DNA of 64,000 nucleotides, taken from contig NC_047019.1 of NCBI RefSeq assembly GCF_902652985.1, forward strand, positions 35,464,001-35,528,000, in the 5' to 3' direction. Shown here piece by piece: positions 15,865 to 62,950 of the stretch (position 1 is its first letter; every line of letters begins with the position of its first letter). The translations under genes and the position numbers were made by a program. The notes under the pieces were generated by a model. It ran no database searches. It was given only the letters and a program-made list of their open reading frames with translations, and was not told where the DNA came from. This DNA is from Pecten maximus. Taxonomy: Eukaryota.

Positions 15865-16955
15865 TTTGCATCAATAGCAAAATTCTGAAATAGAAAGAAA
15901 AAATTCTTAGCTTCATTGCATTAATGATGACAGTTATATCATCTGAACTATGCATAAATTATTAACATAAGCACATAGTGATAATTTAAAAGGGCGTAAC
16001 GTGCTCTACACACTAACTTAGTATAATTGGACAGATGAGTGCAGAAACAAAATGCAATCAGTGAATCATACTTACACAGTCTCAGACCTAGGCCTACTAG
16101 ACCCAACTTCAGGACACATATGCAAAATGCCTGTGTGTACAATTATGACAAGTGTCAATATGCAGATGTTGCTGCTAACAGCCTGTTACACACATCTAAG
16201 TGTAATGCAAGAGTGTCCAATTGATTCAATCTAAATTATCCGTTGCACATACTGCCCTAAACTGAAGGTCTATGCACGGGGTAAAAACCCATATATCTTC
16301 TGTGACCTCGGATAAAAATAGCCCCCTCAGCAGACGCCGGGCCGAAATTGTAATGAAAATAGGCCTACTGTAGTAATGCAGCGAAATATAAACCATTGAT
16401 TTTTGTTTCGTTTCCAATCGCTGGTCAGAATCACGTACATGTGCACGCTTGACACCTCGTATCCAATGAGAGGAATCGATAAAATGGGGGACTTTCCCGG
16501 TAACTGTGTCACTGACCGACGGGTTACGGCTCACAGCGTTTTCCTATTTTGGAACAAAGGAATTTCTTTGTAGGCCAAGCGCAGACTCAGTCCCGATTCG
16601 TGCACATACATGTGTCTGGCAACCCAATAGATTTGCCGCTAATGTACAATATGTTATGTCAAATTAAAAACGTTAAAAGTAATGTAAATTGTTTGAAAAC
16701 ATACTATAAGAGTAAATAAAGTGTAATCTTCCCATTACGTAGACTGTCAACTACTAAAAATCCATTTTACGGTCAGTGTCCCCGAGGATCTGTTGCGAAC
16801 CTCTTCTTCGCACCGAACACTCCCATTCTCAACGTCGCTAGGTCAAACGAAATCGAAGTCGAATTTCAACTATACCAGGAAATAACAACTCATGAACTTG
16901 ATTGGAAAAGTTAAATATACTCTTTAGAAATATATTAAGCATAAAATATTCTTAC

Positions 16956-25600: not shown

Positions 25601-28600
25601 GGCACTGCTGTGGACAAATTGAAAGGGCAGTGGTCGTTCATTACAACATTTAAAATGATATCTCATGAACTCGTGGACAGATTTATTTTATGGGTGAGGG
25701 GAAGGGGGAATATATATATATATGTGTGAGCCGCTACTGGCTTTTATTTTATTTTTTTGTACAAAAAATGTATTGCTCCATTACAGGGAGGAGACAGTGT
25801 CCGACCTGCTCAGCAACATGTTGGACACTGAACGCAACGAGTCTGTTATAGTAAATGGTTTATCTGTGATACAAACCCTTTTAGAATTTAGGAAACAAGG
25901 GTGAGTAGTTGAAACTCATTGTGTCTTTAAAAAAATAATTTACTTTTCATTTAATGATAAACAGTTATCAAGAATTTAATTGTTATACCTCTTGCATAGA
26001 TCTGAGTCTGACAGATTCCAATTAGTTGACTTAAAGTTTTGAAATGATTCTAATTTCATTATTAAGCATCCATACCTTCATGTGACATAGGCATCAGTCG
26101 TCAGGCTGCTGAGTTGAAATATAACAGCAACTTGTATAACTTCTTTTGAAGGTGTTATGCTGACTAAAGTTTATATGTGGCTATCGTCCTGAGAGCCACA
26201 TTTCAATAAATGTGTAAATATTGAGGTTACTGATGCTACCAGTGAGGTATGCAAACTTGCCATTGTTAATATATATGTATGTAACTATGTATTTTCAGTC
26301 CTGAAGGATCAACAGAACATATTTCAACACTAGACACAGAACGATTAGCCCAAGGTGTTAGTAATGTTTTGTTAGCAATTACACCCAGACTACGGGATTT
26401 CCATAATTTACTCACAGATCCACCCAAGGTAGGTATCCTTTTATTAGCTCATCTGGCCTGAAGGTCCAAGTGAGCTTATGGCATGGTTGGGCATCTGTCG
26501 TCTGTCAGTCCATCCAGCTTCAACATTTCTATTTAAACCATTTCTTATTAACCAAGAGTCCCAGAGTCATATTTGGCTGGTGGGTTCCTGAGATTGAGGC
26601 AGACACAGTTGGTGAAAAGAAATTACCTTGACCTGTATAAAAGTTGTTAAAACATTAGAAAGATGTCTTGACACAAACCAAAAAGGCCTAGAATCATGAT
26701 ATTTGGCTGGTTGGTTCCTGGAACAGAGCTCAACAGAGTATAAAAAAACCCTGAACCATGTTAAGTCAAAGAAGTGTATTAACAGGTCTATAATAAAATA
26801 CATTAGTTTAGAAATAAGAATTTAGGGAAAAGTGGCAGCAATACAAAGTATCCCGTGATATATTGATGATGAAATTGTCATTGTTGGTAAAATCTCAGAA
26901 TAAGTTCTGGATATAAAAAAAATGTTTACAAGCCTGACTATCTGTTGAATATGTAATTCATGAATTTTAAATGCCTTATGTAAGTTTTCTTTTCATCTTT
27001 GCAGCAAAAGTTTTGTACGATGCCTACATCAATAGGGACACTTGAACCACCGCTGGGAAACACCAGACTGCAAATAGCCCGTCTTGTATCAGCACTCACG
27101 TTAACCAATTCACATTCTGTTACTGTAGAATTAGCCAATTTGGGGACCATGGGGGTTTTAGTAGTAAGTATTTTATGCTGTACTAGAAATGGAGTTCCGT
27201 ACATTGTGTCAAACAAATTGATTAATTAGGGCTGAGAAACTGTTGTAGAAGCCCTTTTAAGTAATCAGTGTCCCTTAGTCTCCCCACTACTAGCACTTTG
27301 TCAATAGAAGTTTTCTCAGAGTCCTGAATGTTAACATTTCAGATATTACACAGTGATATGTAAATGTACAATAGGTTGGAGTCAACAGGTCTTGGTAATG
27401 AGTCATGATGAAATTTTGTATCTTAACTAAATAACTAATACCTAATAGGCAAAAAAATTCTTCATCTGGTCATAATCAAACAACAATAAAATTTTGTAAA
27501 TGGCATGAAGCAAAGTTGATTGTAATCAAACAATTAGTTTGTTATGATACTTTTCAAAGGAAAGTTAACATGGGAAATAAATGAGCAAAAGGTCAAATAC
27601 CAAAGTGGCTGGTACCTTGGATGTGCATGACTCCTACTTGATGATTATGGGGGATATTACATTAGTATAATGTATACACCTGGCCCTTCCTGAACTTAGA
27701 CAGTATCACTTGTGAAGAAAAAACTTAATTGGAAGAATTATTTAAGATTTCAACAAAAGTCCCTGGTGAACCAAATAGAATGTTCATTAAAATGATATGG
27801 AGTATGTACTTAAGTGTAATGTAAATTGTTTTTGCAGGATTTATATTTCAAGTACTGTTGGAACAATTTTCTTCATACGCATGTTTCTCAATGCATCAAC
27901 ACTGTGTTATATAATTCTCCTATTGAATCTGATGGAAAGAAGGAGCACCTACTTTTAGTCCAGGTAAGTTTTCATTGTAAATCCTGTTCATTCCATCTAA
28001 ATTAACTGCTCTCTCTTAAACGAATTATGTCTTAATTGGATTCAATGCAACATCATGATTGGTCCTCAATTTCAATGCAACATCATGATTGGTCCTCAAT
28101 TAATAGTTCCTGCTGTTACTGGTTTATAATAATGTATATATGTTTGGTAGGCTTATCATACATAAAAAATATCAATAATATACTTGACAAATACTTCCTT
28201 GGCATTTTAGTTAACAGATAGGCACTTTAAATTCTAAATATAACACACAAAACATGTCCATTAAAATGTTTGTTTTGTCTGAAGTTATTTTCAGAATTCC
28301 ACCTCCTTCAGCGAATAATGGATGTGTGGGAAGAGAACGATCAGCAACAGTAAGTTTTTTTTTCTTAAGATTAGTAATGATTTGTTCTAGAGTTAACCTC
28401 ATCACAATGGCTGAGCAATAAGGTAGTCAAATTTGGTATACTTAATTCCTCATTCATGATAGAAAGAAACCTCTTGATTTTCTGAGGAGGTAAAAGGTCA
28501 AGGTCACTTTGATTCATGTCACAAAATCAGCTCCATGTAGATTATTCCAGGCAGTCATAATTTCATTTTGTAAATTACATGAAATGGAAAACAATGTAAG

Positions 28601-44636: not shown

Positions 44637-46563
44637 TTTTTAGCCCACCATCATCAGATGGTGGGCTATTCAAATCGCCCTGCGTCCGTGGTCCGTCGTC
44701 CGTCCGTCCGTCCGTCCCTCCCTCCGTCCGTCCGTCCGTCCGTCCGTCCGTAAACAATTCTTGTTATCGCTAATCCTCAGAAAGTACTGAAGGGATCTTT
44801 CTCAAATTTCATATGTAGGTTCACCATGGTGCCTAGTTATGCATATTGCATTTTGGGACCGATCGGAAAACAACATGGCCGACAGGCAGCCATCTTGGAT
44901 TTTGACCATTGAAGTTTGTTATCGCTATTTCTGAGAAAGAGCTGAAGGGATCTTTCTCAAATTTCATATGTTGGTTTCCCTTGGTGCCTAGTTATGCATA
45001 TTGCATTTTGGGACCGATCGGAAAACAACATGGCCGACAGGCAGCCATCTTGGATTTTGACAATTGAAGTTTGTTATCGCTATTTCTAAGAAAGTACTGA
45101 AGGGATCTTTCTCAAATTTGATATGTGGGTTTCCCTTGGTGCCTAGTTATGCATATTGCATTTTGGGACCGATCGGAAAACAACATGGCCGACGGGCAGC
45201 CATCTTGGATTTTGACCATTGAAGTTTGTTATCGCTATTTCTGAGAAAGTACTGAAGGGATCTTTCTCAAATTTGATATGTAGGTTTCCCTTGGTGCCTA
45301 GTTATGCATATTGCATTTTGGGACCGATCGGAAAACAACATGGCCGACGGGCAGCCATCTTGGATTTTGACCATTGAAGTTTGTTATCGCTATTTCTAAG
45401 AAAGTACTGAAGGGATCTTTCTCAAATTTCATATGTAGGTTCCCCTTGGTGCCTAGTTATGCATATTGCATTTTGAGACCAATCGGAAAACAACATGGCC
45501 GACAGGCAGCCATCTTGGATTTTGACAATTGAAGATTGTTATCGCTATTTCTCAAAAAGCACAGAAGGGATCTTTCTCAAATTTCATATGTAGGTTCCCC
45601 TTAGTGCCTAGTTATGCATATTGCATTTTGAGACCGATCTGAAAACAACATGGCCGACAGACAGCCATCTTGGATTTTGACAATTGAAGTTTGTTATCGC
45701 TATTTCTGTGAAAGTACGAAGGGATCTTTTTCATATTTGTTATGTAGGTTCCCCTTGGTGCTTAGTTATGCATATAGCATTTTGAGACCAATCCGAAAAC
45801 AACATGGCCGACAGGCAGCCATCTTGGATTTTGACCATTAAAGTTTGTTATTGCCATTTCTGAGAAAGTACTGAAGGGATCTTTCTCAAATTTCATATGT
45901 AGGTTCCCCTTGGTGCCTAGTAATGCATATCGCATTTTGGGATTGATCGGAAAACAACATGGCCGACAGGCAGCCATCTTGGATTTTGACCATAGAAGTT
46001 TGTTATCGCTATTTCTGAGAAAGTTCTGATTGGATCTTTCTCCAATTTCATATGTAGGTTCCCCTTGGTGCCTAGTTATGCATATTGCATTTTGATACCA
46101 ATCAGAAAACAACGTGGCCGACAGGCAGCCATCTTGGATTTCGAAAATTGAAACTGGTTATCACTATTACTAAGAAACTAATGAAGGGATCTTCCTGAAA
46201 TTTCATATGTAGGTTCCCCCAGGTGCCTAGTTATGCATATTGCATTTTGAGACCAATCGGAAAACAACATGGCCGACAAGCAGCCATCTTGGATTTTGAC
46301 AATTGAAGTTTGTTATCACTGTTTCTGAGAAAGCACTGAAGGAATCTTTCTCAAATTCCATATATATAGGTTCCCCTTGGTGCCTAAATCTTAAATTTTA
46401 TATATAGGTTTCCCTTGTTTGAAAAGTACTAGAGGTTTCTTCTGAGTTTACACAGATTAGTAAGACTTAGAAGAAGAGAAAAGTAGAGAAAAGATCAATC
46501 TGACATGGAACCTATAAAGAACATTCAATGGTGGGCGCCAAGATCCCTCTGGGATCTCTTGTT
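44637..46563 (+). mobile_element. Non-autonomous Helentron-type element (HINE-like), copy 2, with about 10.5 units of 155 bp
   Basis: 5' hairpin 44641-44668, (GTCC)n at about 44686-44750, 155-bp period (GTTATCGC at 44763, 44918, 45073...), and 3' ATGGTGGGCGCCAAGATCCCTCTGGGATCTCTTGTT. Same family as 1196-2857, inverted. Confidence 0.85.
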
Positions 46564-49379: not shown

Positions 49380-49772
49380 TTTAGCCCAGTGGTAGCTAGG
49401 ATACTTCTAGAATTCTTAATGGATTGTTCTCAAATTTCACATGTAGGTTCCTCTTGACACCCATTTGTGTAGACTGATTGGAAAATTATATGTCCAACCG
49501 GTGGTCATTTTGAATTTTGTCGGTTAAAATTTTGTATTGCTTTTCCCAGAGACCTATAATAGGTCTATTTCTCGGAAAGTTTCTTATGGATATTTCTTGA
49601 ATTTCATTTAGATTCGTCTTGTATTAATTGAAGTTTGTTAGCTCTATTTCAAAGGAGTTCTTGACGGATCTGTCTCAGATTTATGATGTAGGTTCAGCTT
49701 GTTTTCAAATGATTAAAAGGAAGAAGAGAAAAGATCAGTAAGAGATCCAATGAAGGTCATTCAGTGGCGGGT
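49380..49772 (+). mobile_element. Old, degenerate remnant of the 155-bp HINE family
   Basis: Starts TTTAGCCCA and contains CTCAAATTTCACATGTAGGTTCC, TTGAAGTTTGTTA, AGAGAAAAGATCA and CATTCAGTGGCGGG, matching the head, core and tail of the intact copies. Confidence 0.6.
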
Positions 49773-50070
49773 GTTTGTTTGATACCAGAAAATATTTCTA
49801 AATTTCAAGAATTACTTTTGATATCTAGACTAATATTTTGACAAAAAAATATATGATATCAAGCACCCATTTTTTATACCAGAAAATGCATGCTTAGGTT
49901 TTTCATATCAAGAATTCATTCATTTATAACAAAAATAAATTTTCTGAAACATGTTACATTTATTATTGATAAAAAATAGTGCCGTTTTACTATATTTTTA
50001 TATCAAGAGTTATGTTTTTGATTCTGGTTCAGAATAATGAAATATTCGGCAAGTCAAAATCAAGTGCACC

Positions 50071-50319
50071 TGTTGTGACTCTATGGGGCGAGTTGGTTTG
50101 CGGTGGTCCGAGTCTGTAGGTATATCTGGACAACTCGCCCGAAGGTGATGTGTGGAAGTACTCGTCACTCGTCCAGGTTAGTCTACATATGGTTGTTCTG
50201 GTATACGGACGTGTTTCACACACCGCACCTGACTGACCGTAGGCTCGCCGTATTGCACGGCATTATATATATACTATATCCTAGCAGATATTGCATATTC
50301 ACGGCTATCTTGCACAACA
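50071..50319 (+). repeat. 5' LTR
   Basis: TGTTGTG...CACAACA 7-bp inverted termini; direct repeat of 56322-56570. Confidence 0.97.
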
Positions 50320-50320
50320 T

Positions 50321-50330
50321 TGGTGTCAGA
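50321..50330 (+). other. Primer-binding site, probably tRNA-Leu
   Basis: TGGTGTCAGA 1 nt after the LTR, complementary to the ...TCTGACACCA 3' end of metazoan tRNA-Leu(CAA) as recalled. The match is only about 10 nt. Confidence 0.7.
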
Positions 50331-50651
50331 GTTTAAACGGGTTTATATAGGCAAATTTATTTTCACTGTCGATACAGTCTTACTGTTCAGTGACAGCTGT
50401 TTATAGTGTGTAATAGCCCCGGGCCGTTACTCGGCGCACGGTAATACGGCTATTTTTAGAATTAAAAAAGTGCTTACTGGCCAGTGATATCTACACGTAT
50501 ATCACTCTCTACGGAAATTGTCCATATATTTGGTTTGGAGTTTGTTTTTTGGTAATCATTTGTTCTATATCTCTGCTGTATTATATCGGTACGTCATATA
50601 TTTATATATAGGAATTTTCAGGAGAATTAGGTTGTATTATTCATTGGAGTT

Positions 50652-52121
50652 ATGGATATCAATACGGCTTCGGAGGCAGATCTTGGTACTATCCACCAAA
50701 TTGGAAAAAAACGAGCTAGAGCTATTATAGAGAAAAGGGAGGAGTTGGGGGAACTAACCCTGGCGGATCTCAAGCAGATACAGGGGGTGCCTAGCACAAT
50801 TTGGGATCCCTTGCTCAAGACGGGGGTTATAGTTATCCCATTGGATGAGTCGGAAGGGGTTCCGAGGGAACCTAGCGCGGACATCAAAACCATGAGAGCG
50901 GCTCTAGAGAAGATGGAAAATGTTATCGATCAGCAAAAGCGGGAAATGGGGGAGGCTAGAGAGGAATTTCGGAGGCAACTCCAAGACGCCGAGATCGATT
51001 ATAAGAATCGTGTGGAAAACCAATGTAGGCGTTATGAAGCCATGTTGGCAGAGGAAGAGAAGAAGCGAGAGGTGAAGCTACAGGCAGATATCCTTAATAA
51101 AATTGAAGAGGTGGCTCCCAGTAATCAGTATGGTGGGCCGACTCACAGATCAGCTGGGAATGAGGAGGCGACACAAGGCAGCAGGAATAGCCATTCCAGT
51201 GTAAGGCCGGACGGAAAGGATGTGGAAAAAAGCCTGAGGGTGAAGGTGCCGCCCTATGACGGGAAGAGCGAATGGAAACCGTATTTGATCCAGTTTCAGC
51301 ATATCGCGAATCGACATAGGTGGTCAGAGGCACAGAAATTGGACAAGATGGTTGAATGCCTTAGGGAGAAAGCTCTGAAGTTTTTTAGCTCCCGGCCCCT
51401 GTCTGTACAAAATAATTTTGCCCTTTTATGTTTGAAGATGAACAGTAGATTTGGCAAAACCGATCTTCCGCACATTGTGCGCAGGCAGTTACAGGATATC
51501 CGACAGTCCACAGAGGAGTCGCTTGAGGAGTATGCTGAGAGGGCCCAGGTACTGGCTTCGGAGGGTTACGCTGACTTTTCCGAAGAAGGAATTGAGACTC
51601 TAGCAATAGATGCCTTCCTGAAGGGTGTTCAGGATAAACATGCTGCATTTTCCGCAATAGAAAAGAATCCTCGATCATTGGATGAAGCAGTCAAGTATGT
51701 CCGGAGCGCAATGACGAACCAGAAGATTATTTTTGGTAGCAAATCCAGGACAGAAATCAAAAGAGTTTCTTTTGATGAGGAGAACATCAACCACGAGTTG
51801 TTGGCTAGGGTCGTTCACAACGTTGATAGGTCACAGTCACGTCTAGGGTTGGGACTGGAGGAGCGTATGCGGCGGACTGAGTGTGACATCCATGATATAA
51901 AGGAGGAGCTCCGGAAGTTGGGTATTCCTGGGAATACAGGTAGAGGTCAGTCTGTCCAGGGTTCACCATCGAAGAGGCTCTCGGTGTGTTTCTTTTGTAA
52001 TAAAGAGGGCCATTTTGTCAAGGATTGTCCTGTGAAGGCCTCCTGTGTTGCTGATAGATCTCGCTCCCCTTCCCCATCAGCTGCCAGGAAGAATTTAAAC
52101 TTCAAAGGGTCGCAGATGTAG
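50652..52121 (+). CDS. gag: Gag (489 aa): N-terminal ComEA-like HhH domain, coiled coil, capsid domain, CCHC zinc knuckle
   Basis: MDINTASEADLGTIHQIGKKRARAIIEKREELG...DLKQIQGV; capsid-type PPYDGKSEWKPYLIQF and IRQSTEESLEEYAER; CFFCNKEGHFVKDC knuckle. Confidence 0.93.
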   Translation: MDINTASEADLGTIHQIGKKRARAIIEKREELGELTLADLKQIQGVPSTIWDPLLKTGVIVIPLDESEGVPREPSADIKTMRAALEKMENVIDQQKREMGEAREEFRRQLQDAEIDYKNRVENQCRRYEAMLAEEEKKREVKLQADILNKIEEVAPSNQYGGPTHRSAGNEEATQGSRNSHSSVRPDGKDVEKSLRVKVPPYDGKSEWKPYLIQFQHIANRHRWSEAQKLDKMVECLREKALKFFSSRPLSVQNNFALLCLKMNSRFGKTDLPHIVRRQLQDIRQSTEESLEEYAERAQVLASEGYADFSEEGIETLAIDAFLKGVQDKHAAFSAIEKNPRSLDEAVKYVRSAMTNQKIIFGSKSRTEIKRVSFDEENINHELLARVVHNVDRSQSRLGLGLEERMRRTECDIHDIKEELRKLGIPGNTGRGQSVQGSPSKRLSVCFFCNKEGHFVKDCPVKASCVADRSRSPSPSAARKNLNFKGSQM

Positions 52122-52137
52122 GCCGATCAGCGACCCT
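52094..52137 (+). promoter_or_regulatory. Programmed -1 ribosomal frameshift signal (T TTA AAC plus stem-loop)
   Basis: Heptamer 52094-52100 is in the correct gag phase, followed by a 5-nt spacer and stem AGGGTCGC (52106-52113) / GCGACCCT (52130-52137). The -1 frame is stop-free from the heptamer into pol. Confidence 0.85.
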
Positions 52138-52165
52138 CCCTGATGACAATAGCAGGCCATCTCCT

Positions 52166-55100
52166 TTGGCGTCACATCAGCCAGTTGTGAGACAAGTAGG
52201 GGTGAAGGACCGGGATGTTGAGAATATAGAGGTCGCGTATAGGGGATTAATGATAGAGGGCGGTCCTAGGACTATGATACTGAATGTCGTGGTTGGGCTT
52301 CGCGTCATACCCGCTGTAGTAGACACTGCAGCTCAGGCCTCTATAATTAATCGGAGCATATTTAAGCAGTTGCTGCCCGACAAACAATCTGTCGGCCGAT
52401 ATGGTCTAAAGGGTGTAGGGCAACAGTCTCTTCTTGAAGCTCAACGGGCGTCCGATGTGCATATGAGCATTGGGGATTCAAACTTTAAAATTGATCTCCT
52501 GGTAGCTAATATAGCTGATGAGCTTATCTTAGGAATAGATTTCCTAGAACGACATCGAGCAGTCATAGACTTCTCAAACTATTCAGTCATGTTGAATGGC
52601 TACCGGTTTCAGGCGGAGTGCATGCTTAATAATGGGAAGGAGCCTGTGAAAGTGTACAGATTGGTCGTTGGGAAGAGAGCAGTTGTCCCACCAGACTCAG
52701 TGAAGTTTATTGTGGTAAGGACGACAGGGCGAGAATCGCCGGAAGGGGATATCTTAGTCCAGCCTTATCAGGAATTGGAAGGCCTGCTCATTCCTCGCGT
52801 ACTTCATCGTGGTTCCTCAGTCATGACTGTTGTCGTGTGTAATCTGTCGGATAAGTTCATCACCCTCAAGGCGGGACTTCCTTTTGGGACGGGGATGCAG
52901 TCCGAGGTTACGCCCGAGGTTACCACCGAGGAAGACACGGCGGAAAGAGGACAGTTTAGTGTCAGACACACAAAGATGGATCGGTACGGCAACCCAGACG
53001 ATGGATTACGAGCGCTGGTCGAGGAGCTGCCGGAATATTTGCAGGACCTTTTCTTTCGTTCTACTGCCAACCTACCAGCCGGCCAGTCAATACGGGTCGC
53101 TGAACTGTTGATCCGCTTCAAGGGCGTGTTCGCCAAAGATGACCTGGACTTGGGGCTTTTCAATGGGGGTATTAAGCACCGCATAGACACGGGAGACTCT
53201 AGACCGGTTAGACAGAAGATGAGACGTACTCCGTTGGGGTTCGAGGAGGAGGAGGAGGACCACATTCACAAGATGTTGGAGAAGGGGGTGATCCAGATGT
53301 CCACATCGGAATGGGCTGCCCCGCCTGTTTTGGTCCGGAAGAAGGATGGCAGTCTCAGATACTGTATAGACTACCGGCTTCTTAACAAGGCAACTGTCAA
53401 GGACGCTTTTCCTCTTCCTGCCATCGGAGCCTGTATAGATACCATCGCAGGAAGTATGTTCATGAGCACTCTAGATATGGCAGCCGGGTATTGGCAAGTC
53501 GAAGTGGCCGAACGAGATCGTCATAAGACAGCTTTTATTACGAAACACGGGTTGTTTGAACATGTGCGGTTGCCATTTGGCTTATGTAACAGCCCAGCGA
53601 CCTTCAACAGAGTTATAGAACTAGTGCTTCGTGGACTGACTTGGAGGGATTGTTTGGCGTACTTGGATGATGTCATGGTCCTTGGGAATGATTTTGACTC
53701 TCATATTCGCAACCTAGGTGAAGTACTGACGAGGTTCCAGAAGTACAACCTCAAGTTAAAACCAAAGAAATGTCACCTTTTCCAGACAGAGGTCAAGTTC
53801 CTTGGGAAGATCGTGAGCGCAAGCGGTGTATCAGTTAATCCTGAGAGTACAGAGGCTGTCCGTAACTGGAAGGTTCCGGTGAATAAGCGTGACGTAGAGT
53901 CCTTCCTGGGATATGTGAACTACCATCGCGAACATATTCCAGGATTTGCTCAGCTAGCGATACCTCTCCATGACCTTACGGGTAAAGCTGATTTCTGCTG
54001 GGTCGAGCGGCATCAACAGGCATTTGAGGACTTGAAGAATGCTCTCATCAATGCCGTGGTATTGGCCTATCCGAATCCAAAGGACCCCTTCATCCTGGAT
54101 ACTGATGCCTCCGACGGAGCAATTGGTGCTGAGCTGAGTCAGGTCCAGGATGGAAGAGAGAAGACCATCTGCTTTGCTAGTAGAGCTTTAACACCAGCGC
54201 AAAAGAGATATTGTACCACACGGAAGGAACTGTTGGCTATAGTTTCCTTTACACGGCAGTTCAGACATTATCTTCTCGGAAAAACGTTTGTGGTCAGGAC
54301 AGACCATAATAGTTTGAGATGGTTGTTAAATTTCCGGAACGTTCAGGGTCAGCTAGCAAGATGGTTAGAGGAACTCTCTTCATACAATATGGTTATTCAG
54401 CATCGGGCGGGTGCGGACCATGTCAATGCGGACGTGCTCTCACGATTGTCCGATCCCCTCGAAAGCTGTTCTAGCTATCAATGTGGGGTTCCATTATCCG
54501 CGTTGCCTTGTGGAGGCTGTGCATTCTGCACCCGAGCTCGTAACCAGTGGGAGGTGTTTGAGGAGGAGGTTGATTATGTGGTTCCGCTAACTGTTAGGCG
54601 GGTGTCGTCGCCTGACACCGAAGTCAGCTCCTTGATATATCCGACATGGACGGATCACCTCTCAGAGGAGGAGCTGCGAGCTAGACAGTTGGAAGACCCA
54701 GACTTGCGACTTGTCATTGGGTGGTTGGAGAACGAGGAGAGTCCATCAGAGGTCGATCTCAGGGTCGCGGGTAAAGAAGTCCGACATTGGTGGAATTGTC
54801 GAGATCAATGGTGCAAGCGGGGTCAAGTCTGGTTTTATCGCTGGGAGGACCCTATTACTCCGAGACTGTTACTTCTTCTTCCTAGGTCCTTACGGCTTCT
54901 GGCCCTTCAGAAGTCTCATGATCTGCCCAACTCGGGACACCTAGGGGAAACAAAGACCCTTCAACGTGTTAAACAGAGTGTTATCTGGTACGGGATGTCT
55001 GGTGACGGCAAGAAGTACGTATCGTCTTGCAGGGTCTGCGGACTCAACAAGAAAGCAAGTATCAAACCCAAAGCTGCCCTCGGACAATACCATTCTGGGA

Positions 55101-56206
55101 ACCCAATGGAGAGGGTTCACATGGACATTTTGGGGCCTCTTCCCGTTACCCCACGAGGGAACAAGTACATCCTCATGGTGATTGACCAATTTTCAAAGTG
55201 GTTAGAATGCTACCCATTGCCGGACCAGAGCGCAGAAAGTGTCGCACGGGCTGTGGTGGATGAATTCATCTCCAGATTCGGCTGTCCACTGGAAATCCAC
55301 ACGGATCAAGGCAGAAATATGGATGGGTCTCTTGTAAGGACAGTTTGCAAATTGCTTCAGATCACAAAGACGAGAACAACTCCATACCATCCAGCTTCCA
55401 ATGGTCAGATCGAAAGGTATAACCGGACTATTCTACAGTCACTCCGATGTTTTATCGACGGGAAACAAGGTAGTTGGGATCAACATCTACAGCAGCTTGC
55501 AGGGGCCATAAGAGCAACTGTGCACCGGCAAACCGGGTTCACTCCTAATCGGATGATGTTGGGTAGGGAGGTAACCCAGCCTCTTGACATCTATCTGGGC
55601 ACATCTAATGTTAAGTCTCAGGTAGAGAGTCCCGCTGAGTATGTGCTCGGTTTGGAGGAAGTGTTAGAGGAAGTCCATCGGATTGCACGCCAGAATCTTG
55701 GCGGCGCGCAGCACAGGCAGAAGAGGGATTATGATCTCCGAGTTCACCAAAGAGCCTACCAGGTGGGGGATGTAGTTCTGAAGGTGGATTCTTCTACGAC
55801 AGTTGGGGTATCGAAGAAGCTGAAGGCTCCTTGGAAGGGGCCCTATTTGGTGACCACGGTAAAATCGCCTGTGTTGTACACCATCACCGACCGGAAGGGC
55901 AGTAGTGTTATCCATCACGATCGCCTAAAACTTTGTAAGGACAGAGAGTTTCCGGTCTGGCTGAGGAGAATGAGGAACGAACTCCTCAAGGAGCTGGAAG
56001 TGGAGTCGTCGGCTGATTCCCGGGAGCGTGAACATGAGGGTGATATGGGACTACGGAAGTTGTTTTCTGGTCCTGGTTCCACGGCAGGGGCAGGAGAACC
56101 CGATGAGAACGGTCAGGTAACACAGAACTCTCCGACCCCGCGGAGTTCCCGCCGGAGGAGGTCCCCTAGGTATCTGCAGGATTACGACCTGTCATTCGGG
56201 AAGTGA
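52166..56206 (+). CDS. pol: Pol polyprotein (protease, reverse transcriptase, RNase H, integrase); probably entered by -1 frameshift at about 52100 rather than at the TTG
   Basis: VVDTAAQASII and ILGIDFL (protease); RYCIDYRLLN, LPFGLCNSPATF and YLDD (RT); TDASDGAIGAEL and TRKELLA (RNase H); H-x6-H...CRVC, HMDILGP, HTDQGRN, SNGQIER and GPY motif (integrase). Confidence 0.97.
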   Translation: MASHQPVVRQVGVKDRDVENIEVAYRGLMIEGGPRTMILNVVVGLRVIPAVVDTAAQASIINRSIFKQLLPDKQSVGRYGLKGVGQQSLLEAQRASDVHMSIGDSNFKIDLLVANIADELILGIDFLERHRAVIDFSNYSVMLNGYRFQAECMLNNGKEPVKVYRLVVGKRAVVPPDSVKFIVVRTTGRESPEGDILVQPYQELEGLLIPRVLHRGSSVMTVVVCNLSDKFITLKAGLPFGTGMQSEVTPEVTTEEDTAERGQFSVRHTKMDRYGNPDDGLRALVEELPEYLQDLFFRSTANLPAGQSIRVAELLIRFKGVFAKDDLDLGLFNGGIKHRIDTGDSRPVRQKMRRTPLGFEEEEEDHIHKMLEKGVIQMSTSEWAAPPVLVRKKDGSLRYCIDYRLLNKATVKDAFPLPAIGACIDTIAGSMFMSTLDMAAGYWQVEVAERDRHKTAFITKHGLFEHVRLPFGLCNSPATFNRVIELVLRGLTWRDCLAYLDDVMVLGNDFDSHIRNLGEVLTRFQKYNLKLKPKKCHLFQTEVKFLGKIVSASGVSVNPESTEAVRNWKVPVNKRDVESFLGYVNYHREHIPGFAQLAIPLHDLTGKADFCWVERHQQAFEDLKNALINAVVLAYPNPKDPFILDTDASDGAIGAELSQVQDGREKTICFASRALTPAQKRYCTTRKELLAIVSFTRQFRHYLLGKTFVVRTDHNSLRWLLNFRNVQGQLARWLEELSSYNMVIQHRAGADHVNADVLSRLSDPLESCSSYQCGVPLSALPCGGCAFCTRARNQWEVFEEEVDYVVPLTVRRVSSPDTEVSSLIYPTWTDHLSEEELRARQLEDPDLRLVIGWLENEESPSEVDLRVAGKEVRHWWNCRDQWCKRGQVWFYRWEDPITPRLLLLLPRSLRLLALQKSHDLPNSGHLGETKTLQRVKQSVIWYGMSGDGKKYVSSCRVCGLNKKASIKPKAALGQYHSGNPMERVHMDILGPLPVTPRGNKYILMVIDQFSKWLECYPLPDQSAESVARAVVDEFISRFGCPLEIHTDQGRNMDGSLVRTVCKLLQITKTRTTPYHPASNGQIERYNRTILQSLRCFIDGKQGSWDQHLQQLAGAIRATVHRQTGFTPNRMMLGREVTQPLDIYLGTSNVKSQVESPAEYVLGLEEVLEEVHRIARQNLGGAQHRQKRDYDLRVHQRAYQVGDVVLKVDSSTTVGVSKKLKAPWKGPYLVTTVKSPVLYTITDRKGSSVIHHDRLKLCKDREFPVWLRRMRNELLKELEVESSADSREREHEGDMGLRKLFSGPGSTAGAGEPDENGQVTQNSPTPRSSRRRRSPRYLQDYDLSFGK

Positions 56207-56307
56207 TGGGCTTTGTCGTATGAATCTGGATAGGACATGCGAGTTGCTCAGCAACTGTCGAGGACATGGAACTTGGTCTTTGTTCCAGCGACTAGTCGAC
56301 ATTTTAT

Positions 56308-56321
56308 AAAATGGGGAGGAG
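56308..56321 (+). other. Polypurine tract
   Basis: AAAATGGGGAGGAG abutting the 3' LTR. Confidence 0.85.
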
Positions 56322-56570
56322 TGTTGTGACTCTATGGGGCGAGTTGGTTTGCGGTGGTCCGAGTCTGTAGGTATATCTGGACAACTCGCCCGAAGGTGAT
56401 GTGTGGAAGTACTCGTCACTCGTCCAGGTTAGTCTACATATGGTTGTTCTGGTATACGGACGTGTTTCACACACCGCACCTGACTGACCGTAGGCTCGCC
56501 GTATTGCACGGCATTATATATATACTATATCCTAGCAGATATTGCATATTCACGGCTATCTTGCACAACA
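56322..56570 (+). repeat. 3' LTR
   Basis: Identical to 50071-50319 on manual comparison; followed by TSD GCACC. Confidence 0.97.
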
Positions 56571-56646
56571 GCACCCACTGTAAGAATGAAACTTCCCATT
56601 GATCGAGACTGTAAGCGTTTGTGCGACGAAGACTGAAATAGAAAAA

Positions 56647-59600
56647 ATGGCGGACGAAGACGGAGATAAGTATGCACAGTCTATTTTTCACGCTTTACCA
56701 ACACCGTATATTCTTTTAAGTAAAATATATCGATTAGTATTTGAAGAGTTCAATTTACGTTATGATTCGAAACAAAGTATGTTTCAGTTTATGGCCGACG
56801 TTCCGGTTTTTTCATCCTTATTATTTATTGCACAACGAGCCATGCTGCACGCGTGCTTGTAAATAAAATGTAGACCATTCGTTATTCGACGACGTTTATT
56901 TACATTCGTACCCGGTACTTAAACGGGTCCCTGAAGCCATCTTTCAATTAAGGTATAACTATGTTATTACGATGAAAAAGGTTATTAACTTAAATATGAA
57001 TAGTAATCTGAACATGATCAGGTCGGGGAAACCCCTAGATCGGCGTATAATACCTCGATCGGCCTATTATACGCCGATTGAGGTATGGATTTGTTACTAG
57101 AAATAGCTCAAATCAATTTAAACTCATCTTTTTAAAAATTTCTATCCAAGTCGCATGAATTTATGACAAAATAAATAATATTTTGCTGAAATATGTTTAA
57201 TGGAAGCAGTGGCTACTTAGAAACTTGATGTTACAATCGCCGCCGTAGTAACACTACCATCGTAACATAGGCCATATAGACCGGAAGTATTACATCTGTT
57301 TTCAGTTCTTTCCCGCACTCAAATAAATTTAATTTTTGTATTTGTATAACGTTTAATGCCTAAATAAATGCGACTTGGATAGAAATTTTTAAAAAAGATG
57401 AGTTTAAATTGATTTGAGCTATTTTTAGTAACAAATCCATACCTCAATCGGCGTATAATAGGCCGATCGAGGTATTATACGCCGATCTAGGGGTTTCCCC
57501 GACCTGATGATGATCAGCGTTATACGGTAACGTTAAGTAGGTACTGTATACTAATATAGGTTTAGCTTTATACGATCACAATGTTTAAACCACTTGATTT
57601 GTTTGCAGTTTTGATGACGATTTAGATGAAGTAGAAGATGAAGAGCCACTTGATGAACCTATTAGTCAGGTAATTAATAATTATGTAACATATTTTTACA
57701 ATCTACTAATTAAAATATATAGATGCTCATTCTCACTACGTTATATGAACATCTAACGACATCGCATAAGGGGTCACGTTCTGGTGAGTGGTGACCTTTG
57801 TTACCTCAATATTTCTCTTTCAGGTCGAATTGACAAATTTTTGATGTCATCAATCTCACCCACTTATCACATCATGCATCTGAAGTAGCCCTGAGTTTCC
57901 TCTGGTGTAGGGCCAGAGCGCACTACTATATGAAAACGTGGAATTATCCGACACCGTATGGTGCCGCTAAGAATTTTGTGCAAATACAATAAAATTGGGT
58001 TTGACATAACACCTACCTTACATATATGGATAACTGAGATATTTATTTACCCCAGAACACCCATTAGTCCCTATCTTGCATTATTCCAGCCGTATATACC
58101 CTATACCTAGCTTTACGCTAGTCAAAATTTCATACTTGACTCAGCGCCATATTGCTAACTATGTAGGTCACAGGCGGACTAATTACCCCAATCAGACAGT
58201 GCAAGGTGGAGCGAAAAGAAAAGAAATACTACATTTATTTTTTTATATATTTTACCGCTTATAATTTATAAAATTATAAAAAAAAATAATGAATTTTTAA
58301 ATTGAATATAACAGGTTTTGGTAAATAATAAGCTTAGTTTTCTTGATTTAAACTATGTAAAAAGAAAAACACATTAAATGATACATGAACTTTTCGGTCC
58401 ATTGCATTCCAATTCGGGTGGTTAGTGGTACTGTCACTTACAAAATTGAGGGTCAACAGTATGAAATTTTGAGTAGCGTAAAGCGAGGGTTCTATACGGA
58501 TGTACGGGTGTTCAAGGGATAAATAAATATCTCATTTATCCATATATGTAAGGTAGGTGTTATGTCACACTCGATTTTATTGTATTTGCACCAAATTCTT
58601 AGCGACGCCAAACAGTGTTGGATAATTCCACATTTTCATATAGTAGTGCGCTCTGGCCCTACACCAGACATGGTGTCGGGGCCAGAGGAAACTCGGGCTA
58701 GCATCTGAAGCTAACCATTTCGGTTATGCACTTTAGTCATGCTATTTTCACTTTCAAGATTCTGTAAGTAGTAATTTGATTGGGGTAATCCAAAAGGTCA
58801 CCCTGACATGAGTCACATGACCCATTATCCAATGTTTTTAGATGTTCATGTAACACAGTGAGAATGACCATCTAGATTTTAATTAGATTGCATATTTTTA
58901 CATAATTATATGATATTTATCAAAATCATCTAGCAGGAAATCCATGCTACATGTATATCCATGTATATTGTATATAACTTAGCAACACAAATGATGAAGG
59001 AAGACAACTTTTTGACTCGTGCCCTGACCGGGCCTCAAACTCACGATCTACGGCACCCAATCGTCTAGCCAGAAATACCCGCAGCCTATACCGCTGCGCC
59101 ACATCAGCGTTCTTAAAAAAAGAACGTTTCAATGGCGCAGAGATGGTTGGCCCGATACCCTGACATGATCATTGTGGAAGTTGTCTATAAGATGATATGA
59201 ATACCTGGATCGCCATGTATTTACATACATGGATACGAATTGTACATATATTATATATATTTCTCTCGGTACAACTACGACAGGAAATTCAAATCTTTAT
59301 CTTCGGATCACCAACACAAAGTGTATATGATACATTGTGCTAATAAATAGATACCCACGATCTACGGCACCATGTATATTGTATATATATATATATACAA
59401 TGATAGTATTGTTCAATACGCGGGATGGATGACTTCTCTGACCAGTCCAAATTGGTAAAGAGTCTATGAGCAAGAGTTTCCAAATTCCTCTGGCCCTGAC
59501 ACCATTTCTGGTGTAGGCCAGAGCAAAGCCAAGACTAAATGGGTGTGGTGGGGTAAATAAATATCTCTTTATCTTTATGTATAAGGTAGGTGTTATGTCA

Positions 59601-61482
59601 CACCCAATTTTATTTATCTGCACCGAAATCTTAATTACACCAATCAGTGTCGGAGAATTCTACATTTCCATATAGTAGTGTGTTTGCCCTACACCAGACA
59701 GTGTTAGGGCCAGAGGAAACTCAGACTAAGAGCCTATCAGTTCTGCTGTTTTCAACATTCTATTCTTTTGTGAAAGTATCAGACCTCTATAGAGTGCAAT
59801 AGTTCATAAAAAATGCAACACAATTTGATAAGATGTTGTCGGAAAAAATGCTTTTCAGTTGTGACCATTTTTAAAGTATTTATGTAAGATTCATCCCTGT
59901 TATAGGGAGGTGAGTTCTTGCTTGATAAGAAATAAATGATCTGATGTTTATTTGTATGTCAACAGCCACAAGACCAGGTTGAAGTGCTGTCCTCTGATGC
60001 TGGTCTGGCAGTTCCACCTGAGAAGAGGATCACTACACCTTACCTAACTAAATATGAAAGAGCAAGAGTGCTTGGGACCAGAGCACTGCAAATAGCGTAT
60101 GTATTATAAACACTTCAAAGTGACTCTGATAAATCAAAAACCCAAATGAGTTTTGAATTACATGCTAAGTACAATGAAACTATGTTAACTGTAATTCTCT
60201 GTACAAATTGGCAATATTTCAATTAATCAGTAAATGTGCTTGGCTGGATGTAGACTTGATTAACACATCATCTTTAATCATCCATACATCAGACAATGTG
60301 ATTACATAATTACAGAATGTGTGCCCCGGTGATGGTAGAATTGGAAGGAGAAACCGATCCTCTACTCATTGCCATGAAAGAGTTAAAGTAAGTTAATCAG
60401 AAAGCACTGTGTGATGTAGATCAGTCTGCTATTGACAGAATACCAACCTGTGTTAAATGTAGAAATTAGTGACAAAAAAGATAACACAAACTGATGACTG
60501 TAAAAACACCTGAAATTCAGGAAAAATAATGAGTTTGAATTTAAAAAAAACCTTTTAAAACACTTCCATGAAACTTTGACTGTTACTGTACAATTGACCT
60601 AGGATATTTTCACACTAATGGATGAAATAGATTCTTTAGTATTAATATGGATTTTCTGAATAAAGTTATCAAGTTTTTTTTATTATCCCTCATGAGGAAG
60701 TGGGAAAGGGGAAACATTGTTCCATTTATATGTGCATATACACGTTCACCTTTTTGTCAACACTGATGCAGTGGTCAAGTATCAAAATAGTGAGAATACC
60801 TCAAACAAGTTTGTGTTTCACGGTGCCAAGGGAAATGACAAGGTCACTGTTACTATTTAATGAAAATCTTTGTCAACACTCGAGTGACATCCTTAATTTG
60901 ATTTTGATCAAAATTCATATTATGGTCGAGTATGAAAATACCTCTAACAAGTTCATGATTCAGGGAGACAAGGTCACTGATACTATTTAAAGAAAACAGT
61001 TGTCAGTACTCTAAGTAAGGACTTCACATGAGGGGATTTGATTTGCTTGTGATGCCTTGTTCAACTCTCTATTTGCTAATTAATTTGTAGATATTTCAAA
61101 AATCACACCTGTACTACTCTTGTCAGTTCAATCCAAGGTATACTCGGTACTCTATGGAAAAATAATAGAAACTTGTGGATTCCTTGTAGGGAAAATGATC
61201 TTGAATGCAAGATGATCTTGAAAATAAGCCATTTAATTTGACCCAAGTCATTAGCCTGATTTGTACTAAAAATTATGACACCCTGATCATTTCAGTAACT
61301 AGAATTGTATATAATGAATTAATTTAGTTTAAGCAAATGAATATTTTACACATTTCCTATATGTAATTACTTGTTCTGATAACTGTTTCAGAGCAAGAAA
61401 GGTTCCACTCATCATTCGACGATATCTTCCTGATGGAAGTTTCGAGGACTGGGCTGTGGATGAACTTTTAATGACAGAATGA
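56647..61482 (+). CDS. POLR2F: DNA-directed RNA polymerases I, II and III subunit RPABC2 (RPB6), 5 exons, about 125 aa
   Basis: Exons 56647-56669, 57609-57669, 59966-60096, 60316-60387 and 61392-61482, all GT-AG and in phase (378 nt). Encodes an acidic N-terminus [20 protein letters not shown] and [69 protein letters not shown]. It is absent from the ORF track because the exons are short. Confidence 0.96.
57019..57506. mobile_element. Foldback MITE (488 bp) with about 137-bp near-perfect TIRs, in POLR2F intron 1
   Basis: CAGGTCGGGGAAACCCCTAGATCGGCG... / ...CGCCGATCTAGGGGTTTCCCCGACCTG, flanked by ATGAT on both sides. Confidence 0.9.
57678..58908. mobile_element. Older MITE-like element with diverged long TIRs, host of a nested insertion
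   Basis: TAATTATGTAA...TAATTAAAAT..TAGATG.TCATTCTCACT..GTTA.ATGAACATCTAA on the left matches the reverse complement of 58790-58908. Confidence 0.6.
57886..58700. mobile_element. Non-autonomous DNA transposon with TAG...CTA ends, long TIRs and 10-bp TSD (AcademH-like; MULE not excluded)
   Basis: GCATCTGAAG directly flanks both ends (57876-57885 and 58701-58710); about 165-bp imperfect TIRs starting TAGCCC.GAGTTTCCTCTGG. Confidence 0.8.
58950..59108 (-). mobile_element. tRNA-derived SINE or tRNA pseudogene-like head
   Basis: On the - strand: A-box TGGCGCAGCGG and B-box-like GAGTTTGAGGCCCG. The spacing and stems do not give a clean cloverleaf. Confidence 0.5.
59480..59728. mobile_element. Internally deleted relative of the 57886-58700 element
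   Basis: Shares TAAATAAATATCTC, AAGGTAGGTGTTATGTCACAC and GGGCCAGAGGAAACTC.G.CTA right-end sequence. Confidence 0.7.
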
Positions 61483-61964
61483 AAGAATCACTTCCAAGCA
61501 ATTTTCATTTCATTTGTGAAAGATTGTGAGAGAGAAAGATGATTGATGACAGAATCAGGGAGATTTCAAAAGTAAGGCATAGTGAGAGAGAAAGATGAAT
61601 GATGACAGAATCCGTGAGTGTTCAGAAGAAAGTCAGATCAATGTTTTCTGTCCATGTGTTTTGATCATTTCATTTTACGTGTAATTTTGTATTTGTCCAA
61701 GATATATGTATTAAAACAAGTTTTACATAATAATTTGAGTAGTCCTTATCTCTTAATTTCATTCTTTCCTCTCATAAATTCTGTAGGTTTCCTTATTCCT
61801 TCCATACCTAATCACAATATCTTCAAAACTATTATTTAACAGACAATATAAAACTGAAGAGACAGAGAATGGGATGTGAAGTGTTTACATTCTGGCTGGC
61901 ATTGTACCAATCTTTTAAGTTTTAGGAGATTATCTATCCTAAAAGGAGTAAGAGTTGCATTGCA

Positions 61965-62950
61965 GATACCAGACGTGGATACAGCCTTCGACCTCAAGTG
62001 GGCGGATTGTCACGATACCAGATACGGACACAGCCTTCAAGTGGGAGGATTGTCGTGATACCAGACGCAGACACAGCCTTCTATTGGGAAGAGTGTCACG
62101 ATACCAGACACGGACACAGCCTTCGACCTCAAGTGGGCGGATTGTCACGATACCAGACACGGACACAGCCTTCAAGTGGGAGGATTGTCGTGATACCAGA
62201 CGCAGACACAGCCTTCTATTGGGAGGAGTGTCACGATACCAGACACGGACACAGCCTTCGACCTCAAGTGGGCGGATTGTCACGATACCAGACACGGACA
62301 CAGCCTTCAAGTGGGAGGATTGTCGTGATACCAGACGCAGACACAGCCTTCGAGTGGGAGGAGTGTAGCGATACCAGACGCGGACACAGCCTTCGACCTC
62401 AAGTGGGCGGATTGTCACGATACCAGACAAGGACACTCTCAAGTGGGAGGATTGTCGTGATACCAGATGCAGACACAGCCTTCGACCTCAAGTGGGCGGA
62501 TTGTCACGATACCAGACACAGACACAGCCTTCAAGTGGGAGGATTGTCGTGATACCAGATGCAGACACAGCCTTTGACCTCAAGTGGGCGGATTGTCACG
62601 ATACCAGACACAGACACAGCCTTCAAGTGGGAGGATTGTCGTGATACCAGATGCAGACACAGCCTTCGACCTCAAGTGGGCGGATTGTCACGATACCAGA
62701 CACGGACACAGCCTTCCATTTGGAGGATTGTCATGATACCAGATGCTGACACATCCTTCAAGTGGGAGGAGTGTCGCGATACCAGACGCGGACACAGCCT
62801 TCGAGTGGGAGGAGTGTCGCGATACCAGATGCGGACACAGCCTTCGAGTGAGAGGAGTGTCGGGATACCAGACACGGGAACATCCTTTGAGTGGGAGGAG
62901 TGTCGCGATACCAGACGTGGACACAGTCTTCGAGTGGGAGGAGTGTCGCG
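61965..62950 (+). repeat. Compound minisatellite of 43- and 49-bp monomers with 135-bp and 92-bp higher-order units
   Basis: GATACCAGA recurs at 62014, 62057, 62100, 62149, 62192, 62235, 62284, 62327, 62370, 62419 (spacing 43, 43, 49). About 22 monomers in total. Confidence 0.93.

What the first reader, a model, noticed from the sequence alone, without database searches (positions are those of the whole stretch)
50071..56669. Very recent, intact retrotransposon inserted 76 bp upstream of the start codon of essential POLR2F
Seen: identical LTRs, a perfect GCACC TSD and uninterrupted ORFs. The 3' LTR ends at 56570 and the POLR2F ATG is at 56647, in the same orientation. Any promoter sequence further upstream is displaced by 6.5 kb; only 76 bp remain, plus the YY1-type AAAATGGCGG over the ATG. 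Established: RPB6 is shared by Pol I, II and III and is essential. Inference: this is a heterozygous or deleterious insertion, or the gene has a very compact promoter, or the LTR drives it. It may also indicate a preference for nucleosome-free housekeeping promoters.
Basis: partly seen in the sequence, partly recalled or inferred. Interest (0 to 1): 0.7.

Follow-up and report, generated by a model that had tools for sequence, protein, structure and literature searches.

The report
Young retrotransposon beside essential polymerase gene
A young jumping gene sits 76 bases before the start of an essential RNA-polymerase gene in this genome but is missing from three other samples of the species; the gene likely survives because its own start signals lie downstream of the insertion, and this family shows no sign of aiming at gene starts.

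Summary
A 6,500-bp Ty3/Gypsy element with identical 249-bp LTRs, open gag and pol frames and a GCACC duplication ends 76 bp before the ATG of the single-copy POLR2F gene. It is polymorphic: contigs from 3 of 3 DNA samples (three studies) carry the empty site and none shows the junction. It is not an assembly artefact: 1 of 5 RNA-type runs has a contig running from the LTR through the junction to the exon-1 donor. The displaced 300 bp are AT-rich and CpG-poor; the CpG-rich DNA lies downstream and is kept. The native start is likely within the 76 bp (TISU-like), so the gene likely keeps working, with some LTR-led read-in. Zygosity and allelic expression were not measurable. Promoter targeting is not supported: 0 of 9 other family sites lie at a recognisable gene start (3 are in tandem arrays). 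Two oddities: relatives make 4-bp duplications, this copy 5 bp; and Gag begins with a ComEA-like helix-hairpin-helix domain shared by many relatives, which this scan noted before in a sea urchin (e1-7881707). Verdict: a real but ordinary kind of event. Interest 0.35.

The parts
49409..49773 (.). Dispersed repeat in the displaced 5' flank
   Evidence: 50 matches elsewhere in the genome over query positions 30-394
49771..50070 (+). Displaced proximal flank: GC 25%, 2 CpG in 300 bp; joins 56571 in the empty allele
   Evidence: loose ends before 56571 in X1, X3, X5 read as window 50036-50065
50066..50070 (+). Left copy of the 5-bp target duplication GCACC (4-bp GCAC plus one C is the alternative reading)
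   Evidence: relatives have 4-bp duplications; this junction was not checked against reads
50071..50319 (+). 5' LTR, 249 bp; G at LTR position 32 is private to this copy and present in both LTRs
50321..50330 (+). Short primer-binding site, 10 nt complementary to a tRNA 3' end
   Evidence: 7 nt exact after TGG against intron-containing tRNA genes; isoacceptor not settled
50652..52121 (+). gag (489 aa from the first ATG): N-terminal HhH domain, coiled coil, capsid, CCHC knuckle
50652..50846 (+). ComEA-like helix-hairpin-helix domain at the Gag N-terminus
   Evidence: Pfam HHH_3 E 3.7e-8; EEPD1, KIF22, ComEA by sequence; ComEA 8dss rmsd 1.7 A over 64 columns
52094..52137 (+). Predicted -1 frameshift signal: slippery heptamer 52094-52100 in gag frame and an 8-bp stem
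   Evidence: frame check; fold z -2.0, 8 of 200 shuffles as stable
52058..56206 (+). pol frame, 1,382 codons stop to stop: protease, RT, RNase H, integrase; no env, no chromodomain hit
56313..56321 (+). Polypurine tract
   Evidence: sequence
56322..56570 (+). 3' LTR, pointing at POLR2F; holds three ATGs, each closed by a stop before the gene
56571..56646 (+). 76-bp remnant: right duplication copy, a 16-codon upstream ORF (56586-56636), likely native start site
   Evidence: start site inferred and PMC2518114, not mapped
56644..56653 (+). YY1/TISU-like motif over the start codon (one base off the human core AAGATGGC)
   Evidence: sequence; PMC2518114 section 5
56325..56669 (+). Span of the LTR-to-exon-1 contig in run X8
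   Evidence: record 22: 368 nt, 3 other letters, 7-nt gap, 30 nt left over after the donor
56647..56669 (+). POLR2F coding exon 1
   Evidence: X10 loose end before exon 2 reads as exon 1
57609..57669 (+). POLR2F exon 2
59966..60096 (+). POLR2F exon 3
60316..60387 (+). POLR2F exon 4
61392..61482 (+). POLR2F exon 5, coding part

Best explanation
A young Ty3/Gypsy retrotransposon, present in this genome and absent from three other samples, sits at the upstream edge of the POLR2F promoter, where it likely landed opportunistically and likely leaves the gene working because the gene's own start site and CpG-rich DNA lie downstream of it. Shown: the anatomy, the empty allele elsewhere, the junction in an RNA-type contig, the CpG asymmetry, and the lack of gene starts at the family's other sites. 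Inferred: the native start lies within the 76 bp and uses the YY1/TISU-like motif; the 3' LTR adds a minor longer transcript whose upstream ATGs would make it a poor RPB6 message; any loss is mild or covered by a second, empty allele; the allele is rare and likely transient.
For: Empty site in 3 of 3 DNA runs, each an unbroken contig across 56571 with no branch to the LTR and with other letters than the window at 56609, 56621 and 56756. Junction in X8. 18 CpG in the 300 bp downstream against 2 upstream; window median 3, 95th percentile 14 of 190 bins. Spliced contigs of X10 and X19 begin inside exon 1 (15 and 7 nt before the donor) at depth 367 and 107, a weak hint of a very short leader. In human genes this motif lies +5 to +30 from the start site, median leader 12 nt when it holds the start codon (PMC2518114, section 5). 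A native upstream ATG at 56586 also argues for a start downstream of it. X8 holds the junction and spliced POLR2F contigs at depth 723-955. 0 of 9 other sites at a gene start. In Drosophila new LTR insertions favour promoters but inherited ones are 5.6-6.9-fold depleted there (PMC10018349, abstract and section 23).
Against: No start site was mapped; RNA-seq contigs lose 5' ends and the two short contigs do not stop at the same base. TISU data are human. The displaced 300 bp are unique sequence and may hold AT-rich activators that CpG counts miss. Expression in X8 may come wholly from an empty second allele. The X8 contig's LTR 5' part carries letters of another copy (the solo LTR at C3:42.1M), so it may be a graph merge and does not place the LTR start. 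The 30 leftover letters are inferred to be exon 2, not shown. Four other RNA-type runs show no junction; two of them (X6, X7) look like one data set.
Confidence: 0.55

Rival explanations
1. The insertion cripples its allele (lost upstream activators, interference or silencing spreading from the LTR) and survives only as a heterozygous, recessive deleterious variant.
For: Single-copy gene that is essential (established knowledge). Absent in 3 of 3 other DNA samples. Inherited LTR insertions are depleted at promoters in Drosophila. LTR-led RNA would carry up to four upstream ATGs.
Against: RNA crosses the junction and reaches the exon-1 donor, so the allele is not wholly silent. The CpG-rich DNA is kept. 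Intron-1 contigs of X6 and X8 show only the window's letter at 56756, though assemblers drop alleles.
Confidence: 0.27
2. The 3' LTR has become the main promoter of this allele, an exaptation caught at birth.
For: Same orientation; X8 contig runs from inside the LTR to the exon-1 donor, and no X8 contig covers the polypurine tract side (56250-56324), which fits a start in the LTR rather than read-through from the element body.
Against: Seen in 1 of 5 RNA-type runs; X6/X7 share the window's intron-1 letters but show no LTR contig. Contig depth 30 against 723 for downstream exons (not a valid ratio, but no sign of dominance). Upstream ATGs in the leader.
Confidence: 0.08
3. The family aims at nucleosome-free housekeeping promoters, perhaps through the Gag helix-hairpin-helix domain.
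For: One of 10 sites within 100 bp of a start codon has about a 2-3% chance at random for an assumed 20,000-30,000 genes, but the site was picked for that reason. Gag has a DNA-binding-type domain.
Against: 0 of 9 other sites at a gene start: 3 in tandem arrays, 1 in a mid-gene intron, 1 inside a LINE, 4 among repeats or without a gene call. The two other equally young full copies are both in tandem arrays. No YY1/TISU-like motif within 700 bp, or the shorter flank held, at 11 sister-family elements. No chromodomain hit.
Confidence: 0.07
4. Assembly artefact.
For: No DNA run laid here shows the junction (0 of 3); the 5' junction was not checked.
Against: X8 contig crosses the 3' junction; target duplication; a private base shared by both LTRs; the empty site in other samples matches exactly.
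Confidence: 0.03

Closest known systems
Ty3/Gypsy LTR retrotransposons of bivalves (clades listed in PMC6238403; passages seen)
   Same: LTRs, PBS, PPT, gag then PR-RT-RH-INT, no env; Gag relatives named from Mytilus and Saccostrea at 34-45% identity
   Different: Clade not assigned here; Gag starts with an HhH domain, which that paper's main text does not mention (0 hits for 'helix-hairpin')
De novo Drosophila LTR insertions in promoters, removed by selection (PMC10018349; abstract, section 23)
   Same: A young promoter-proximal copy while other surviving copies lie in repeats and introns
   Different: That pattern comes from 43,316 new insertions; here one site, no new-insertion data
Precision TSS-targeting elements (PMC7337890, abstract; Tf1 of fission yeast, recalled)
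   Same: Position just upstream of a Pol II gene start
   Different: Those elements hit gene starts as a rule; this family does so at 1 of 10 sites
TISU/YY1 short-leader promoters (PMC2518114; abstract, section 5)
   Same: Motif over the ATG of a basic-function gene
   Different: One base off the human core; function not shown in molluscs; start site not mapped
HhH-Gag Ty3/Gypsy element of a sea urchin (scan note e1-7881707)
   Same: ComEA-like HhH domain at the Gag N-terminus
   Different: Another phylum; here several families in one bivalve genome with 4-bp duplications

Membership tests
Ty3/Gypsy LTR retrotransposon | Two direct LTRs with TG...CA ends | tested here: met
Ty3/Gypsy LTR retrotransposon | pol order PR-RT-RH-INT with Gypsy-type RNase H and integrase profiles | tested here: met
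   protease 74-171, RT 426-584, RT_RNaseH 648-776, Integrase_H2C2 942-999, rve 1016-1112
Ty3/Gypsy LTR retrotransposon | Gag with capsid fold and CCHC knuckle | tested here: met
   Retrotrans_gag and zf-CCHC; best fold matches PNMA2 and Arc capsids
Ty3/Gypsy LTR retrotransposon | PBS, PPT and 4-6 bp target duplication | tested here: met
   PBS only 10 nt, isoacceptor unsettled; duplication 5 bp against 4 bp in relatives
Named mollusc Gypsy clade (C-clade, MolGy1-16 etc.) | RT/RNase H tree placement with reference elements | not tested
env-bearing element (errantivirus or retrovirus) | env frame between pol and the 3' LTR | tested here: not met
   pol stop at 56206, 3' LTR at 56322; no frame there
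TSS-targeting retrotransposon (Tf1-like) | Most insertions just upstream of Pol II genes | tested here: not met
   0 of 9 other sites; no gene annotation, 140 of 476 flank ORFs scanned; surviving copies only
TSS-targeting retrotransposon (Tf1-like) | Enrichment of new insertions at start sites | not testable with these tools
   needs new-insertion or population mapping
POLR2F/RPB6 | Rpb6 domain, acidic N-terminus, spliced full frame | tested here: met
TISU/YY1 promoter | Core motif over the ATG | tested here: inconclusive
   AAAATGGC against human core AAGATGGC
TISU/YY1 promoter | Start site 5-30 nt upstream of the motif | tested here: inconclusive
   contigs cannot show a start; X10 and X19 begin inside exon 1
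LTR-exapted host promoter | Transcripts start in the LTR and splice into the gene; allele fixed or common | tested here: inconclusive
   LTR-to-exon-1 contig in X8 only; allele absent in 3 of 3 DNA runs, so not fixed

The most novel reading that the evidence does not exclude
The HhH-Gag Gypsy lineage of marine invertebrates carries its own naked-DNA-binding module that steers the integration complex to nucleosome-free DNA (promoter edges, AT-rich arrays); selection purges most promoter hits, and this allele is one caught early, with its LTR already serving as a second promoter of an essential polymerase subunit.
Probability: 0.1. Interest if true: 0.7.

Novelty: new member of a known kind. Interest (0 to 1): 0.35.

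Why it matters
As a class, young polymorphic LTR insertions at promoters are well known. This one is useful as a natural experiment: a segregating or private allele at a single-copy essential gene, with three linked marker bases and an RNA junction already seen, so allele-specific tests could show how small a mollusc housekeeping promoter can be and whether an LTR helps or harms at birth. The wider lead is the Gag HhH domain: it is conserved (28 of 47 relatives), is labelled 'comEA' in a mussel annotation, and I found no description of it in three literature searches. If it guides integration or protects the cDNA, that would be a new part in the Gypsy life cycle.

Tried and rejected
Empty-allele haplotig in the assembly: none, one match only for the 3' flank, so zygosity is open. 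Start of the X6/X7 contig at 56640 as a start site: rejected, it lies exactly 30 nt before the donor, the mark of a graph branch. X6 and X7 as two witnesses: rejected, same 517-nt contig and depth. Contig depths as copy number or expression ratio: not used. Apparent gene starts near the C18 and C19:13.36M solo LTRs: rejected on reading; the motifs lie in dispersed repeats, and the C18 'exon' lies just past the end of a reverse-transcriptase fragment on the other strand (read by eye). A second POLR2F copy as buffer: none found. A divergent partner gene at the promoter: none among 130 of 207 upstream ORFs scanned; the hits were SAPS (+, 23.7-27.2 kb) and FAM60A (-, 7.6-15.9 kb) plus one weak below-cut-off hit. 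LTR identity as proof of extreme youth: allows up to 1.2% divergence. PBS isoacceptor: ARAGORN without introns found 0 genes in 7 loci; with introns it called tRNA-Met(CAT) in 3 of 7 loci; the long mature length suggests Leu to me (recalled), unsettled. Sigma-70 scan: irrelevant to an animal promoter. Sister families: 9 of 20 fetched stretches gave no LTR pair and 4 of the other 11 no duplication. Literature: HhH+Gag searches gave 1 unrelated paper (Cer1 CERV passage), 0 papers and 69 papers of which the 10 listed titles were off-topic; POLR2F+retrotransposon gave 7 listings, none on this subject by title; one search listed general reviews only.
Full report
1. Observation. The element spans 50071-56570. 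Its LTRs are 249 bp and identical, GCACC flanks both ends, and gag and pol are open. Pfam gives HHH_3, Retrotrans_gag and zf-CCHC in gag, and protease, RT, RNase H, integrase in that order in pol: a Ty3/Gypsy element without env. pol is in the -1 frame; a slippery heptamer at 52094-52100 and a stem follow (z -2.0). The ATG at 56647 is 76 bp from the LTR end. It opens a five-exon, 126-codon frame; exon 3 hits RNA_pol_Rpb6, introns 2-4 are spliced as predicted in 4 of 4 runs, and the gene has one match in the 918-Mb assembly. That RPB6 is shared by Pol I, II and III and essential is established knowledge, not tested here. The host is a bivalve by the names of Gag relatives (Mytilus, Saccostrea); earlier scan notes on this genome point to the great scallop (not tested).

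2. Is it real and recent? I laid 8 of 24 listed runs. All 3 DNA runs (three samples, three studies) have one unbroken contig that crosses 56571 and continues into window 50036-50065: the empty site with a single GCACC. These contigs differ from the window at 56609, 56621 and 56756, no contig joins the LTR to this flank, and none has the G at LTR position 32 that is private to this copy. So none of the three appears to carry the allele; contigs drop rare variants. Of 5 RNA-type runs (X6 and X7 look like one data set), X8 has a 368-nt contig lying on 56325-56669, through the LTR end, the 76 bp and exon 1 (record 22). The junction therefore exists in reads. Thirty letters are left after the donor; a separate unspliced contig ends 30 nt into exon 2, so I infer the 30 letters are exon 2; the joint itself was not among the rows shown. 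X8 holds RNA: it shows GT-AG joints and A-to-G clusters. Cautions: the first third of that contig carries two substitutions and a 7-nt gap that match the solo LTR at C3:42.1M, so it may be a graph merge and cannot place a start; and X8 shares the window's intron-1 letters, so it may not be a second animal. On age: 0 of 249 differences allows up to 1.2% divergence. Stronger evidence is the polymorphism and the C3 copy, which differs by 3 independent changes in 6,251 bp.

3. What is displaced? The 300 bp upstream of the site have GC 25% and 2 CpG; beyond them lies a dispersed repeat. The 300 bp downstream have 18 CpG, above the 95th percentile (14) of 190 window bins, and 3-7 CpG per 100 bp continue for 1 kb. 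The insertion is at the upstream edge of the CpG-rich zone. The ATG sits in a YY1/TISU-like motif; in human genes that motif lies +5 to +30 from the start site with a median leader of 12 nt (PMC2518114, abstract and section 5). Spliced contigs of X10 and X19 begin inside exon 1 despite depths of 367 and 107, and an upstream ATG at 56586 would burden any longer leader. These hints place the native start downstream of the insertion; none maps it. No divergent neighbour was found (130 of 207 upstream ORFs scanned).

4. Does the family aim at promoters? The LTR search gave 15 matches: this copy's two and 13 more at 10 places, two of which are one duplicated site, so 9 other sites (counts are lower bounds). 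Three lie in tandem arrays of 29, 36 and about 54 bp, among them both other full-length copies with identical LTRs. One is antisense in a mid-gene intron, one inside a LINE, and four lie among repeats or have no gene call (140 of 476 flank ORFs scanned, no annotation available). So 0 of 9 are at a recognisable gene start. Eleven sister-family elements had no YY1/TISU-like motif within 700 bp or the shorter flank held. One hit in 10 within 100 bp of a start codon would have a 2-3% chance for an assumed 20,000-30,000 genes, but this site was chosen because it is one. Surviving copies are filtered: in Drosophila new LTR insertions favour promoters while inherited ones are 5.6-6.9-fold depleted there (PMC10018349, abstract and section 23). 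A mild open-chromatin bias is thus possible; precision targeting as in PMC7337890 (abstract) is not supported.

5. Mechanism. Best reading (0.55): an opportunistic, young, unfixed insertion that leaves a compact downstream promoter intact and adds some LTR-led RNA. That RNA would carry up to three LTR ATGs and the native one, all closed by stops before the gene, so it is likely a poor message; interference is as plausible as rescue. Rivals: crippled allele held as a heterozygote (0.27), LTR as main promoter (0.08), promoter targeting (0.07), artefact (0.03). Zygosity and allelic expression decide among the first three and cannot be read from contigs; the assembly holds no second haplotype of the flank.

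6. The duplication is 5 bp, but 4 of 4 clean family sites and 7 of 7 sister elements have 4 bp; 4-bp duplications are also reported for animal Helenus elements linked to Gypsy (PMC10886601, passages). And Gag begins with a helix-hairpin-helix domain: Pfam E 3.7e-8, EEPD1, KIF22 and ComEA by sequence, pLDDT 85-91 and ComEA at rmsd 1.7 A, Foldseek E 0.1 within the whole-Gag search. It is present in 28 of 47 relatives and gives 27 matches in this genome. Three searches found no description; subscription journals, Repbase and the supplements of PMC6238403 (passages seen) were not seen and may name the family or the domain. This scan noted the same fusion in a sea urchin. A role as DNA tether or cDNA shield is my inference only.

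7. Verdict. Observation confirmed; interpretation partly supported. A new member of a known kind: real, young, polymorphic, with an RNA junction, but no sign of targeting and no evidence yet of effect. Interest 0.35. The boldest reading, HhH-guided insertion into open DNA with the LTR as a newborn second promoter, has probability about 0.1 and would deserve 0.7.

Noticed in passing
window 50652-50846: Gag starts with a ComEA-like helix-hairpin-helix domain; 28 of 47 relatives carry PF12836 and 27 matches lie in this genome. Model pLDDT 85-91 there, ComEA match rmsd 1.7 A. Noted before by this scan in a sea urchin.
   Followed up: partly
window 57008-57141 and 57384-57517 (POLR2F intron 1): 134-bp inverted repeat with clusters of A-to-G differences in both arms in RNA-type runs X7, X8, X10; likely ADAR editing of an intronic hairpin; no matched DNA run.
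   Followed up: no
window 50066-50070: 5-bp duplication where relatives make 4 bp; GCAC fits the relatives' mostly purine-pyrimidine pattern, leaving one extra C at the 5' junction (rare stagger or assembly slip).
   Followed up: partly
L003:1750-1800 (G000:C3006:202438 onward): A 5' half copy with about 30 nt complementary to a tRNA 3' end after the LTR (1 mismatch in 26), then a piece like the LTR end: looks like a fossil of reverse transcription running on into the primer tRNA.
   Followed up: partly
window 52094-52170: Slippery heptamer and stem at the gag-pol overlap; loop bases could pair downstream as a pseudoknot (by eye, not tested).
   Followed up: partly
L028 (G000:C3:42130500-42140499): Solo LTR of this family antisense in an intron of a G-patch plus FtsJ gene (CMTR1-like, name recalled).
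   Followed up: partly
L018 (G000:C14:28256382-28262885): Full-length copy with identical LTRs but 45 differences from the window copy and a frame break in gag: two sub-lineages moved recently.
   Followed up: partly
L014 and L015 (C3641 and C19:13.36M): Same truncated LTR and near-identical flanks on two contigs: likely a duplicated haplotig.
   Followed up: no
window 7595-15870 (-) and 23673-27226 (+): FAM60A and SAPS-domain (PPP6R3-like, name recalled) genes point away from each other around CpG-rich DNA at 16-18 kb: likely a bidirectional promoter.
   Followed up: no
window 44640-46560 and 61960-62950: Two tandem-array repeats flank the locus (about 180-bp units upstream, about 40-bp units after the POLR2F 3' end); read by eye.
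   Followed up: no
window 60358-61421 and 57368-57666: Unspliced intron-4 contigs in X7 and X8, and an X7 contig joining the end of intron 1 to spliced exons 2-4: intron 1 may be removed last.
   Followed up: no
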